A stretch of 64,000 nt of DNA. Source: the human T2T-CHM13v2.0 reference genome, Homo sapiens. The DNA lies in the NCBI GenBank assembly GCA_009914755.4, contig CP068257.2, positions 17,184,001-17,248,000 on the forward strand, read 5' to 3'. The notes beneath the pieces are model-generated. The model worked only from the letters and a program-made list of their open reading frames with translations, was not told the origin of the DNA and did no database searches. Below are positions 45,481 to 52,249 of the stretch, piece by piece (position 1 is the first letter of the stretch; the number at the start of each line of letters is the position of its first letter). The translations under genes and the position numbers were made by a program.

Positions 45481-45861
45481 ATAATTATAACCATAATCAT
45501 AATCACAATCAATCACAAATGAGACTATTACAGGGGTTATCTGTATTTTCTGAATTTGACTGTTGAACTCTCTAGGGAAACTGGGGATATTTTCAGGGAA
45601 AATACCTTGAAATGTGTTTTCTTTTTTTTTTTAATTTTTAAATTTATTTTATTATTATTATACTTTACTTTTTAGGGTACATGTGCACAATGTGCAGGTT
45701 AGTTACATATGTATACATGTGCCATGCTGGTGCACTGCACCCACTAACTCGTCATCTAGCATTAGGTATATCTCCCAATGCCATCCCTCCCCGCTCCCCC
45801 CACCCCACAACAGTCCCCAGAGTGTGATGTTCCCCTTCCTGTGTCCATGTGTTCTCATTGT

Positions 45862-48800
45862 TCAATTCCCACCTATGAGTGAGAATATGCGGTGTTTGGA
45901 TTTTTGTTCTTGCGATAGTTTACTGAGAATGATGATTTCCAATTTCATCCATGTCCCTACAAAGGACATGAACTCATCATTTTTTATGGCTGCATAGGAT
46001 TCCATGGTGTATATGTGCCACATTTTCTTAATCCAGTCTATCATTGTTGGACATTTGGGTTGGTTCCAAGTCTTTGCTATTGTGAATAATGCCGCAATAA
46101 ACATACGTGTGCATGTGTCTTTATAGCAGCACGATTTATAGTCCTTTGGGTATATACCCAGTAATGGGATGGCTGGGTCAAATGGTATTTCTAGTTCTAG
46201 ATCCCTGAGGAATTGCCACACTGACTTCCACAGTGGTTGAACTAGTTTACAGTCCCACCAACAGTGTAAAAGTGTTCCTATTTCTCCACATCCTCTCCAG
46301 CACCTGTTGTTTCCTGACTTTTTAATGATTGCCATTCTAACTGGTGTAAAATGGTATCTCATTGTGGTTTTGATTTGCATTTCTCTGATGGCCAGTGATG
46401 GTGAGCATTTTTTCATGTGTTTTTTGGCTGCGTAAATGTCTTCTTTTGAGAAGTGTCTGTTCATGTCATTTGCCCACTTTTTGATGGGGTTGTTTGTTTT
46501 TTTCTTGTAAATTTGTTTGAGTTCATTGTAGATTCTGGATATTAGCCCTTTATCAGATGAGTAAGTTGCGAAAATTTTCTCCCATTTTGTAGGTTGCCTG
46601 TTCACTCTGTTGGTAGTTTCTTTTGCTGTGCAGAAGCTCTTTAGTTTAATTAGATACCATTTGTCAATTTTGGCTTTTGTTGCCATTGCTTTTGGTGTTT
46701 TAGACATGAAGTCCTTGCCCATGCCTATGTCCTGAATGGTAATGCCTAGGTTTTCTTCTAGGGCTTTTATGGTTTTAGGTCTAACGTTTAAGTCTTTAAT
46801 CCATCTTGAATTGATTTTTGTATAAGGTGTAAGGAAGGGATCCAGTTTCAGCTTTCTACATATGGCTAGCCAGCTTTCCCAGCACCATTTATTAAATAGG
46901 GAATCCTTTCCCCATTGCTTGTTTTTCTCAGGTTTGTCAAAGATCAGATAGTTGTAGATATGCAGTGTTATTTCTGAGGGCTCTGTTCTGTTCCATTGAT
47001 CTATATCTCTGTTTTGGTACCAGTACCATGCTGTTTTGGTTATTGTAGCCTTGTAGTATAGTTTGAAGTCAGGTAGTGTGATGCCTCCAGCTTTGTTCTT
47101 TTGGCTCAGGATTGACTTGGCAATGTGGGCTCTTTTTTGGTTCCATATGAACTTTAAAGTAGTTTTTTCCAATTCTGTGAAGAAAGTCATTGGTAGCTTG
47201 ATGGGGATGGCATTGAATCTATAAATTACCTTGGGCAGTATGGCCATTTTCATGATATTGATTCTTCCTACCCATGAGCATGGAATGTTCTTCCATTTGT
47301 TTGTATCCTCTTTTATTTCGTTGAGCAGTGGTTTGTAGTTCTCCTTGAAGAGGTCCTTCACATCCCTTGTAAGTTGGGTTCCTAGGTATTTTATTCTCTT
47401 TGAAGCAATTGTGAATGGGAGTTTCCTCATGATTTGGCTCTCTGTTTGTCTGTTGTTGGTGTATAAGAATGCTTGTGATTTTTGTACATTGATTTTGTAT
47501 CCTGAGACTTTGCTGAAATTGCTTATCAGCTTAAGGAGATTTTGGGCTGAGACAATGGGGTTTTCTAGATATACAATCATGTCGTCTGCAAACAGGGACA
47601 ATTTGACTTCCTCTTTTCCTAATTGAATACACTTTATTTCCTTCTCCTGCCTAATTGCCCTGGCCAGAACTTCCAACACTATGTTGAAAAGGAGTGGTGA
47701 GAGAGGGCATCCTTGTCTTGTGCCAGTTTTCAAAGGGAATGCTTCCAGTTTTTGCCCATTCAGTATGATATTGGCTGTGGGTTTGTCATAGATAGCTCTT
47801 ATTATTTTGAGATATGTCCCATCAATACCTAATTTATTGAGAGTTTTTAGCATGAAGGGTTGTTGAATTTTGTCAAAGGCCTTTTCTGCATCTATTGAGA
47901 TAATCATGTGGTTTTTGTCTTTGGTTCTGTTTATATGCTGGATTACATTTATTGATTTGTGTATATTGAACCAGCCTTGCATCCCAGGGATGAAGCCCAC
48001 TTGATCATGGTGGATAAGCTTTTTGATGTGCTGCTGGATTCGGTTTGCCAGTATTTTATTGAGGATTTTTGCATCAATGTTCATCAAGGATATTGGTCTA
48101 AAATTCTCTTTTTTGGTTGTGTCTCTGCCCGGCTTTGGTATCAGGATGATGCTGGCCTCATAAAATGAGTTAGGGAGGATTCCCTCTTTTTCTATTGATT
48201 GGAATAGTTTCAGAAGGAATGGTACCAGTTCCTCCTTGTACCTCTGGTAGAATTTGGCTGTGAATCCATCTGGTCCTGGAATCTTTTTGGTTAGTAAGCT
48301 ATTGATTATTGCCACAATTTCAGCTGCTGTTATTGGTCTATTCAGAGATTCAACTGCTTCCTGGTTTAGTCTTGGGAGAGTGTATGTGTTGAGGAATTTA
48401 TCCATTTCTTCTAGATTTTCTAGTTTATTTGCGTAGAGGTGTTTGTAGTATTCTCTGATGGTAGTTTGTATTTCTGTGGGATCGGTGGTGATATCCCCTT
48501 TATCATTTTTTATTGTGTCTATTTGATTCTTCTCTGTTTTTTTCTTTATTAGTCTTGCTAGTGGTCTATCAGTTTTGTTGATGCTTTCAGAAAACCAGCT
48601 CCTGGATTCGTTAATTTTTTGAAGGGTTTTTTGTGTCTCCATTTCCTTCAGTTTTGCTCTGATTTTAGTTATTTCTTGCCTTCTGCTAGCTTTTGAATGT
48701 GTTTGCTCTTGCTTTTCTAGTTCTTTTAATTGTGATGTTAGGGTGTCAATTTTGGATCTTTCCTGCTTTCTCTTGTGGGCATTTAGTGCTATAAATTTCC

Positions 48801-50768: not shown

Positions 50769-51676
50769 CTTTGTGGTTTTATCTACTTTTGGTCTTTGAT
50801 GATGGTGATGTACAGATGGGTTTTTGGTGTGGATGTCCTTTCTGTTTGTTAGTTTTCCTTCTAACACACAGGACCCTCAGCTGCAGGTCTGTTGGAGTAC
50901 CCAGCCATGTGAGGTGTCAGTCTGCCCCTGCTGGGGGGTGCCTTCCAGTTAGGCTGCTCGGGGGTCAGGGGTCAGGGACCCACTTGAGGAGGCAGTCTGC
51001 CCGTTCTCAGATCTCTAGCTGCGTGCTGGGAGAACCACTGCTCTCTTCAAAGCTGTCAGACAGGGACATTTAAGTCTGCAGAGGTTACTGCTATCTTTTG
51101 GTTTGTTTGTGCCCTGCCTCCAGAGGTGGAGCCTACAGAGGCAGGCAGGCCTCCTTGAGCTGTGGTGGGCTTTACCCAGTTCGAGCTTCCCCACTGCTTT
51201 GTTTACTTAAGCAAGCCTGGGCAATGGCGGGCGCCCCTCCCCCAGCCTCGCTGCTGCCTTGCAGTTTGATCTCAGACTGCTGTGCTAGCAATCAGCCAGT
51301 CTCCGTGGGTGTAGGACCCTCCGAGCCATGTGCGGGATATAATCTCCTGGTGTGCCGTTTTTTAAGCCCGTCGGAAAAGCGCAGTATTCGGGTGGGAGTG
51401 ACCTGATTTTCCAGGTGCCCTCTGTCACCACTTTCTTTGACTAGGAAAGGGAACTCCCTGACCCCTTGCGCTTCCCAAGCGAGGCAATGCCTCGCCCTGC
51501 TTCGGCTCGCGAACAGTGCGCGCATCCACTGACCTGCGCCCACTGTCTGGCACTCCCTAGTAAGATGAACCCGGTACCTCAGATGGAAATGCAGAAATCA
51601 TCCATCTTCTGTGTCGCTCACGCTGGGAGCTGTAGACCGGAGCTGTTCCTATTCAGCCATCTTGGCTCCTCCGCTC
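50769..51676 (-). promoter_or_regulatory. L1 5'UTR of the young element (internal sense promoter; antisense promoter region). The YY1-box region 'caagatggctg' is at the extreme 5' end
   Basis: GC/CpG-rich ~900 bp, colinear with the L1PA 5'UTR consensus from my memory ('...gcgcttttccgacgggcttaaaaaacggcacaccaggagattatatcccgcacatggctcggagggtcctacacccacggagactggctgattgctagcacagcagtctgagatcaaactgcaaggcagcagcgaggctggggg...' as RC). The + strand ORFs here are GC-driven artefacts, apart from the ORF0-like frame listed separately. Confidence 0.7.
51224..51406 (+). CDS. Candidate L1 antisense ORF0-like reading frame (60 aa) in the 5'UTR of the young L1
   Basis: 'MAGAPPPASLLPCSLISDCCASNQPVSVGVGPSEPCAGYNLLVCRFLSPSEKRSIRVGVT*'. 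It is on the strand antisense to the L1 and in the position of the primate-specific ORF0. Its resemblance to the published ORF0 peptide is from memory only. The ORF-track entry 51098-51406 is an upstream extension. Confidence 0.45.
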   Translation: MAGAPPPASLLPCSLISDCCASNQPVSVGVGPSEPCAGYNLLVCRFLSPSEKRSIRVGVT

Positions 51677-52249
51677 TGAAATGTGTTTTCTAACTTGTAT
51701 GTTTCTCCCTGTCCCTTTCAGGGATTGCAATGATTTATAGATTTCCCTCTTTACATAATCCCATATTTCTCAGAGGTTTTGTTTGTTCCTTTTTATTCTT
51801 TTTTATTTGATTTTGTCTGACTGTCTTATTTCAGAGAGCCAATCTTCAAGTTCTGAGGTTCCTTCCTCAGCTTGGCTTATTCTGCTGTTAATATTTGTGA
51901 TTGCATTGTAAAATTCTTGTAGAGTGGTTTTCAGCTCTATCAGATTACTTAGCTTCTTTTTTATATTGGCTAATTTTTCTGTCCTATATTGTTTTATTGT
52001 GATTCTTATTTTGCTTGAATTGGGTTTTGCCATACTCTTGAATATTGATAATCTTAATTTCTATCCATATTCTGAATTATATTTCTGACATTTCAGCCAA
52101 CTCGGCCTGGTTAAGAATCCTCTTTGGGGAACCAGTGTGATCATTTGGAGGACATAAGACACCCTGGCCATTTGAGTTGCTGGAGTTCTTGTGTTGGTTC
52201 TTTCTCATGTCTACGTGTGGGTATTTCTTTGACTGCTGGGTTGCCTCTA

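What the first reader, a model, noticed from the sequence alone, without database searches (positions are those of the whole stretch)
45608..51690. Full-length L1PA insertion with perfect 14-bp TSD retaining a complete 1275-aa ORF2 but a dead ORF1
Most genomic L1s are 5'-truncated, and most full-length copies older than L1HS have lost both ORFs. Here the TSD ('tgaaatgtgttttc' on both sides) and both termini are intact, and ORF2 (EN, RT 'FADD', Cys domain) is uninterrupted over its canonical 1275 codons. ORF1 carries a 1-nt deletion near codon ~35 and an in-frame TGA, so the element should be cis-defective. It could still supply ORF2p (reverse transcriptase/endonuclease) in trans, for example for Alu/SVA/processed-pseudogene mobilisation or cytoplasmic DNA synthesis. 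The 3'UTR ('gctagatgac', 'taactaacc') says it is not L1HS but an older L1PA, which makes ORF2 preservation notable. Its 5'UTR also contains an ORF0-like antisense frame.
Basis: partly seen in the sequence, partly recalled or inferred. Interest (0 to 1): 0.55.

Follow-up and report, generated by a model that had tools for sequence, protein, structure and literature searches.

The report
Old LINE-1 copy, ORF2 open by chance
This is an ordinary full-length LINE-1 retrotransposon of the L1PA2/late-L1PA3 generation whose large second gene is still open only because random decay has not yet broken it, a class of element that is already catalogued by the hundred in primate genomes.

Summary
A 6,055-bp full-length L1 lies on the minus strand (45622-51676), flanked by identical 14-bp target-site duplications. 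ORF2 is uninterrupted at 1,275 codons and all checked catalytic residues are present. ORF1 is killed by a 1-nt deletion at codon 35 and a TGA at codon 119. The element is not L1HS. It has the GAG/A 3'UTR diagnostics, the 129-bp 5'UTR deletion and the modern ORF1 coiled coil, which places it in L1PA2 or late L1PA3.

The claim that ORF2 preservation is notable is not supported. Since insertion the element has gained about 1.4% private substitutions. In ORF2 these are 38 nonsynonymous and 15 synonymous, exactly the neutral expectation. They also hit conserved residues at the random rate: 19 of 37 fall on residues at least 90% conserved across mammals, including H206R beside catalytic D205 and T148N beside N147. 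The chance of no nonsense mutation at this divergence is about 10%. L1Base already lists 107 human "ORF2-L1s".

ORF0 is present but truncated. Supply of ORF2p in trans is possible but untested, and the conserved-site damage and the early ORF1 stop both argue against it.

The parts
45608..45621 (.). Target-site duplication, copy next to the poly(A) tail (TGAAATGTGTTTTC)
   Evidence: Identical to 51677-51690. The plus strand reads TTTTC/TAA or TTTTCT/AA at the nick, close to the L1 endonuclease preference TTTT/AA (read from the sequence; the preference itself is from my own knowledge).
45622..45656 (-). A-rich tail: 11 pure A preceded by degenerate A-rich sequence containing AATAAA
45657..45861 (-). 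3'UTR. The diagnostic trinucleotide GAG is at 45748-45750 (L1 positions 5927-5929). A, not G, is at 45665 (L1 position 6012, equal to canonical 6015).
   Evidence: L1Base 2 gives ACA/G for Ta and GAG/A for L1PA2 (PMC5210629).
45862..49689 (-). ORF2, 1,275 codons plus stop, open. Contains the APE-type endonuclease, RT (FADD at 700-703) and the Cys-rich motif.
   Evidence: About 37-38 private amino-acid changes, 19 of the 37 scored lying at residues at least 90% conserved in mammals.
49690..49752 (-). Canonical 63-nt inter-ORF spacer
   Evidence: The ORF1 frame ends at L1 position 1924 and the ORF2 ATG is at 1988.
49753..50768 (-). ORF1 remnant. It has a 1-nt deletion at codon 35 (window 50665/50666) and a TGA at codon 119 (50413-50415). 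The trimerisation, RRM and CTD domains are still recognisable.
50769..51676 (-). Full-length 908-nt 5'UTR of the short, ZNF93-escape form. The 128/129-bp block present in older copies is missing at about window 50897/50898. 29 CpGs remain, against 37 in the comparator majority (38 in the most CpG-rich contigs).
   Evidence: PMC7110667.
51224..51406 (+). Antisense ORF0 frame of 60 codons, truncated at codon 61 by CGA>TGA
   Evidence: 10 of 11 comparators read R or Q at this codon and continue. ORF0 is generic to L1HS and L1PA2-8 (PMC7746726).
51677..51690 (.). Target-site duplication, copy next to the L1 5' end

Best explanation
This is a single full-length LINE-1 of the L1PA2 or late-L1PA3 generation. 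It inserted by endonuclease-dependent target-primed reverse transcription into the ORF1 region of an older L1 lying in the same orientation. By its divergence this happened roughly 8-10 million years ago. It has decayed neutrally since then.

ORF1 happened to take the one indel and one nonsense mutation. ORF2 took about 53 substitutions, none of which made a stop. ORF2 is therefore open by chance, not by selection. The element is a cis-dead molecular fossil of the catalogued "ORF2-L1" class.

Shown here: the structure, the lesions, the subfamily bracket and the neutrality of the changes. Inferred: the age in years, and that the encoded ORF2p is probably impaired and poorly translated.
For: Structure:
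- Identical 14-bp TSD, A-rich tail and full 5' end.
- The reconstructed empty site is one continuous older L1.
- The element is collinear with a full-length comparator over positions 3-6055 with 4 gaps.
- Only one private indel exists.
- Private substitutions are evenly spread along the element.

Subfamily:
- GAG/A diagnostics (PMC5210629).
- 128/129-bp 5'UTR deletion (PMC7110667).
- ORF1 coiled coil nearly identical to the L1HS type. That type is shared by L1Pa3 cluster 1, L1Pa2 and L1Pa1 (PMC7449397).

Neutral decay:
- 71 private substitutions in 5,112 nt outside the 5'UTR, or 1.4%.
- ORF2 has 15 synonymous of 53 private changes, against 0.286 expected (p=1.0).
- 19 of 37 private amino-acid changes fall on residues at least 90% conserved across mammals, against 45.6% expected (p=0.51).
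- P(no nonsense | 53 substitutions) = 0.10.

The class is already listed: 107 human ORF2-L1s (PMC5210629).
Against: - The ancestral sequence was inferred from metagenome contigs of human contamination. These are mosaic assemblies, so some private or shared calls may be wrong, and L1PA2 could not be separated from L1PA3.
- Raw pN/pS is 0.66. That falls to about 1 only after allowing for transition and CpG bias and for conditioning on no stop.
- No expression or activity data exist here.
- The species and chromosomal locus are unknown.
Confidence: 0.9

Rival explanations
1. The locus is a working trans-donor of ORF2p. It is transcribed, ORF2p is translated despite the dead ORF1, and the protein mobilises Alu, SVA or mRNAs, or makes cytoplasmic cDNA.
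For: - ORF2 is open and all checked catalytic residues are kept.
- The 5'UTR is full length and retains 29 CpGs, against 37 in the comparator majority.
- ORF2p translation needs completion of an upstream ORF but not functional ORF1p (PMC4091050). A 214-codon ORF1 remnant still ends at the canonical ORF1 stop.
Against: - Nineteen private substitutions hit residues at least 90% conserved in mammalian ORF2p. They include H206R next to D205, T148N next to N147, G687C 13 residues before FADD, D1012Y, L1114F and Y1231S.
- There is no sign of purifying selection.
- The frame opened by the ORF1 AUG stops after 41 codons, 954 nt and 17 AUGs upstream of the ORF2 AUG.
- Expression was not testable here.
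Confidence: 0.07
2. ORF2 has been kept open by selection, as a domesticated reverse transcriptase or endonuclease gene.
For: Only the bare fact of a 1,275-codon open frame in a copy about 1.4% diverged.
Against: - The synonymous fraction equals the neutral expectation.
- Conserved residues are hit at the random rate.
- The chance of survival is about 10% for nonsense mutations alone, and thousands of full-length copies exist (13,418 full-length non-intact L1s in human; PMC5210629).
Confidence: 0.01
3. The element is chimeric: two L1 fragments, or a copy patched by gene conversion from a younger L1.
For: L1-related DNA lies directly on both sides. An annotation might show this as adjacent L1 pieces.
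Against: - The flanks are a different, much older L1, about 70-75% identical compared with 97% for the element. They join seamlessly once the insert is removed.
- Identity to comparators is uniform across ORF2 thirds.
- Private substitutions are evenly spaced: the largest gap is 327 nt against a simulated mean of 346 (P=0.53).
- Only one indel separates it from full-length comparators.
Confidence: 0.02

Closest known systems
[quoted passage not shown]
   Same: Exactly this configuration: a full-length element with ORF2 open and ORF1 broken by a frameshift plus a stop (PMC5210629).
   Different: Nothing in kind. Whether this particular locus is one of the listed entries could not be checked, because there was no access to L1Base or to a reference genome.
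L1PA2 subfamily, or the ZNF93-escape late L1PA3
   Same: - GAG/A 3'UTR diagnostics.
- The 129-bp 5'UTR deletion.
- The modern ORF1 coiled coil.
- I15V and A21P in the endonuclease, noted as L1PA2-type by Kines et al. (PMC4837594).
- Private divergence of about 1.4%.
   Different: - It lacks V208L, which Kines et al. also list as possibly L1PA2-specific.
- Several ORF2 and ORF0 states are intermediate between the younger-looking and older-looking comparators.
- No curated consensus was available to settle L1PA2 against L1PA3.
Active human L1HS (ORF2p of PDB 8UW3, 8SXT, 9HDO)
   Same: Same architecture and length, 95.5% ORF2p identity, and all checked catalytic and Cys-motif residues retained.
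   Different: - 57 amino-acid differences, about 37-38 of them private to this copy.
- ORF1 is dead.
- GAG rather than ACA or ACG.
- It is not retrotransposition-competent in cis.

Membership tests
LINE-1 full-length TPRT insertion | ORF2 encoding an APE-type endonuclease, a reverse transcriptase and a C-terminal Cys-rich motif | tested here: met
   Pfam PF03372, PF14529 and PF00078. Gap-free alignment over 1-1275 to human ORF2p structures. FADD and CX3CX7HX4C are intact.
LINE-1 full-length TPRT insertion | ORF1 with coiled coil, RRM and CTD, followed by a 63-nt spacer | tested here: met
   Pfam PF17489, PF02994 and PF17490 match the remnant. PDB ORF1p alignments. The spacer is L1 positions 1925-1987. 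The frame itself is broken.
LINE-1 full-length TPRT insertion | A-rich tail, target-site duplication, T-rich/AA nick site and a complete 5'UTR | tested here: met
   The nick-site preference is compared from my own knowledge.
L1HS (Ta or pre-Ta) | ACA or ACG at 3'UTR positions 5930-5932, and G at 6015 for Ta | tested here: not met
   GAG at the equivalent L1 positions 5927-5929 and A at 6012. Diagnostics as given in PMC5210629.
L1PA2 / post-ZNF93 L1PA3 | 129-bp deletion in the 5'UTR | tested here: met
   A 128-column gap relative to L015, L030 and L008, shared with L004. Described in PMC7110667.
L1PA2 / post-ZNF93 L1PA3 | ORF1 coiled coil of the cL1.3 / L1Pa2 / L1Pa1 type | tested here: met
   The 6fia_A coiled-coil chain (L1HS ORF1p 52-152) was matched (E 3.7e-53), but its alignment was not printed. 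Over printed residues 106-152 the window differs from the 2yko/2ykp construct only at R109Q, S119*, residue 121 (V vs A), M125I, M128I and G130E; M125I and M128I look like features of the crystallisation construct, going by my own recollection of L1HS ORF1p. Family statement from PMC7449397.
L1PA2 / post-ZNF93 L1PA3 | Best match to the curated Dfam/Repbase L1PA2 or L1PA3 consensus | not testable with these tools
   No Dfam or RepeatMasker was available. The comparator contigs are mosaics.
L1Base ORF2-L1 class | ORF2 intact and ORF1 disrupted in a full-length element | tested here: met
Retrotransposition-competent L1 (FLI-L1) | Both ORFs intact | tested here: not met
   ORF1 has a frameshift at codon 35 and a TGA at codon 119.
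Domesticated (selected) L1-derived gene | Purifying selection on the ORF since insertion | tested here: not met
   The synonymous fraction equals the neutral expectation. Conserved sites are hit at the random rate.

The most novel reading that the evidence does not exclude
Despite its 19 hits on conserved residues and its early ORF1 stop, this locus might be one of the few older L1PA copies that is transcribed and yields enough active ORF2p to drive Alu or SVA retrotransposition or cytoplasmic cDNA synthesis in some tissue. That would make it a non-L1HS source of reverse transcriptase activity.
Probability: 0.04. Interest if true: 0.4.

Novelty: already known. Interest (0 to 1): 0.1.

Why it matters
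It matters little in itself. ORF2-intact, ORF1-dead L1s are a recognised and databased class. They are of interest only as possible trans sources of endonuclease and reverse transcriptase for Alu or SVA mobilisation, DNA damage or cDNA-triggered inflammation.

The useful result here is negative. For this copy the open ORF2 is fully explained by chance survival under neutral decay, and the protein carries many hits at conserved residues. It should not be counted as a likely active ORF2p source without direct assay.

Tried and rejected
- An exact-sequence look-up of the ORF2 protein found no record.
- The large protein database returned no hominoid L1 ORF2p. The best hit was marmoset at 82%, so it could not give a subfamily or a locus.
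- The 80 metagenome contigs carrying human-type L1 gave good site-by-site comparators. They proved to be mosaic assemblies, so clustering them to separate L1PA2 from L1PA3 was abandoned.
- The supplements of Kines et al. 2016 were searched for this copy's endonuclease mutations, with no hits. That study listed only loci with both ORFs intact.
- Khan et al. 2006 and Alisch et al. 2006 are not held. Subfamily divergence values and the effect of ORF1 premature stops on ORF2 translation therefore rest on secondary citations and my own recollection.
- A search for the 5' junction in bacterial and archaeal genome contigs, hoping for contaminating host DNA, found nothing. Species and locus remain unidentified.
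- Selection on ORF2, chimerism and gene conversion were each tested and rejected.
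Full report
**1. What is there**

Reading the window on the minus strand from 51676 down to 45622 gives a 6,055-bp LINE-1. It starts GAGCGGAGGAGCCAAGATGG. Its parts, in L1 coordinates, are:
- a 908-nt 5'UTR;
- an ORF1 ATG at L1 position 909;
- a 63-nt spacer at 1925-1987;
- ORF2 at 1988-5815;
- a 205-nt 3'UTR;
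- a 35-nt A-rich tail ending in 11 pure A.

The 14-mer TGAAATGTGTTTTC flanks the element on both sides, at 45608-45621 and 51677-51690, and the copies are identical. The next base is T in both copies, so the duplication may be 15 bp. The plus-strand nick site then reads TTTTCT/AA, close to the L1 endonuclease preference. That preference is from my own knowledge.

ORF2 (45862-49689, minus strand) is an ATG-started frame of 1,275 codons with only its terminal stop. Pfam recognises the endonuclease and RT domains. The protein aligns gap-free over its full length to the solved human L1 ORF2p structures 8UW3, 8SXT, 9HDO and 9K6G.

ORF1 is broken twice. A 1-nt deletion at codon 35 shifts the frame, which then stops after 41 codons. 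Codon 119 is TGA where the L1HS protein has Ser.

**2. One insertion, not a chimera**

L1-related DNA lies on both sides of the element. It belongs to a much older L1, about 70-75% identical to L1PA sequences, in the same orientation. I deleted the young element and one TSD copy in silico. The joined flanks then align as a single collinear stretch across the junction to the ORF1 region of L1 comparators.

Three further results support a single element of one age:
- It is collinear with a full-length comparator over positions 3-6055 with four gaps.
- Against ten comparators it has exactly one private indel, the ORF1 deletion.
- Identity is even across ORF2 thirds, and private substitutions are evenly spaced. 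The largest gap is 327 nt against a simulated mean of 346, P=0.53.

**3. Which L1**

No Dfam or RepeatMasker was available, and the protein database returned no hominoid ORF2p. I therefore fetched 80 metagenome contigs that carry human-type L1, presumably host contamination. I used them as site-by-site comparators. They are mosaic assemblies, so I did not rely on any single one.

Three independent markers bracket the subfamily:
- (a) The 3'UTR has GAG directly after GCTAGATGAC, at L1 positions 5927-5929. This equals canonical 5930-5932 after the 3-nt offset of this copy. It has A at 6012, which equals canonical 6015. L1Base 2 gives ACA/G for Ta and GAG/A for L1PA2 (PMC5210629).
- (b) The 5'UTR lacks a 128/129-bp block that comparators L015, L030 and L008 carry. 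[quoted passage not shown]
- (c) The repaired ORF1 has the L1HS-type coiled coil. That type is shared only by L1Pa3 cluster 1, L1Pa2 and L1Pa1 (PMC7449397).

The element is thus L1PA2 or late L1PA3, and I could not separate the two. The motifs it cited are invariant flanking sequence, present in all comparators, and are not the diagnostic bases.

**4. Age and mode of decay**

I called a base private if at most one comparator shared it, or if it was a CpG transition away from the majority. This gave 71 private substitutions in 5,112 nt outside the 5'UTR, or 1.4%. ORF2 has 53 (1.38%). At the roughly 0.17%/My used for L1 dating (my recollection of Khan et al. 2006), this is about 8 My. The 7.6 My and 26.8 My subfamily ages from that paper are quoted in PMC4083085. 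That age is L1PA2-like.

Two tests ask whether ORF2 was protected:
- First test, synonymous fraction. Of the 53 private ORF2 changes, 15 are synonymous and 38 nonsynonymous. Under a mutation model with a 2:1 transition bias and a 10-fold CpG rate, conditioned on no stop, the expected synonymous fraction is 0.286. The observed fraction is 0.283 (p=1.0).
- Second test, hits on conserved residues. In an alignment with 33 mammalian ORF2 proteins, 45.6% of positions keep the human residue in at least 90% of sequences. Of the 37 private substitutions, 19 (51%) fall on such positions (p=0.51).

Both tests say the frame has drifted neutrally. In the same model 4.3% of mutations create a stop, so P(no nonsense | 53 substitutions) = 0.10. 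With one private indel in 6 kb, the chance of no indel in ORF2 is about one half. Roughly 5% of copies of this age should therefore still have an open ORF2.

Human assemblies hold 13,418 full-length non-intact L1s, and L1Base 2 lists 107 "ORF2-L1s" (PMC5210629). This configuration is expected and already catalogued.

**5. Likely function**

All catalytic residues I checked are kept: N14, E43, Y115, D145, N147, D205, S228, D229, H230, D600, D702, D703, C1143 and C1147. The private changes nevertheless include:
- H206R beside D205;
- T148N beside N147;
- G687C, 13 residues before FADD;
- I98L, E346K, F367S, I373T, R385T, P466L, R855H, V883I, P909L, N939S, D1012Y, L1114F, R1159Q and Y1231S.

All of these lie at residues at least 90% conserved from opossum to marmoset. 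I infer that the protein, if made, is probably impaired. This is not shown.

Translation is also compromised. [quoted passage not shown] Here the frame opened by the ORF1 AUG ends 954 nt and 17 AUGs before the ORF2 AUG. A 214-codon ORF1 remnant still ends at the normal ORF1 stop.

The 5'UTR keeps 29 CpGs against 37 in the comparator majority, and a YY1-like box with one CpG>TpG change. Transcription is therefore not excluded.

The antisense ORF0 frame starts at 51224 but stops at codon 61 through CGA>TGA, where 10 of 11 comparators read on. ORF0 is in any case generic to L1HS and L1PA2-8 (PMC7746726).

**6. Verdict**

The finding is real and accurately described, but it is ordinary. It is a neutrally decaying L1PA2/late-L1PA3 fossil, nested in an older L1, whose ORF2 has survived by chance. 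It belongs to a known, databased class.

The trans-donor idea is legitimate as a general hypothesis for the class, but for this copy it is unsupported and somewhat disfavoured. Species, chromosomal locus, expression and enzymatic activity could not be determined with the tools at hand.

Noticed in passing
window 39557-45484 and 51691-~51972: The young L1 sits inside the ORF1 region of a much older L1 in the same (minus) orientation, about 70-79% identical to L1PA comparators. The two halves rejoin seamlessly when the insert is removed.
   Followed up: yes
window ~45170-45515: An Alu-like element on the plus strand, with a degenerate A-rich tail, lies within the old host L1 about 90 bp from the young L1's insertion site. 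The site has therefore been hit at least twice.
   Followed up: no
window 9378-15515: A second old L1 on the minus strand, about 6 kb and 71-82% identical to L1PA comparators, apparently in two blocks (9378-10834 and 10987-15515).
   Followed up: no
window 3601-3930, 5314-5620, 23409-23702, 28588-28888, 36704-36859, 54965-55276, 63350-63544: Roughly 300-bp (some shorter) matches to one short segment of contigs L067 and L050. These are most likely Alu copies scattered through the window. This is inferred from size and repetition and was not verified.
   Followed up: no
loci L001-L080: Many gut, marine and oral metagenome contigs carry near-full-length human-type L1s, often with an open 1,275-codon ORF2. 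Their diagnostic sites are mosaics of several subfamilies, so they look like collapsed assemblies of host-contaminant reads rather than real loci.
   Followed up: partly
L047, ORF0 codon 61: The same CGA>TGA stop that truncates ORF0 in the window also appears in contig L047. This suggests a recurrent CpG-decay hotspot in ORF0.
   Followed up: no
protein database search: No human or ape L1 ORF2p appeared among the hits. The best was marmoset at 82%, although such proteins are abundant in public databases. Close relatives seem to be absent from, or withheld in, the searched collection.
   Followed up: no
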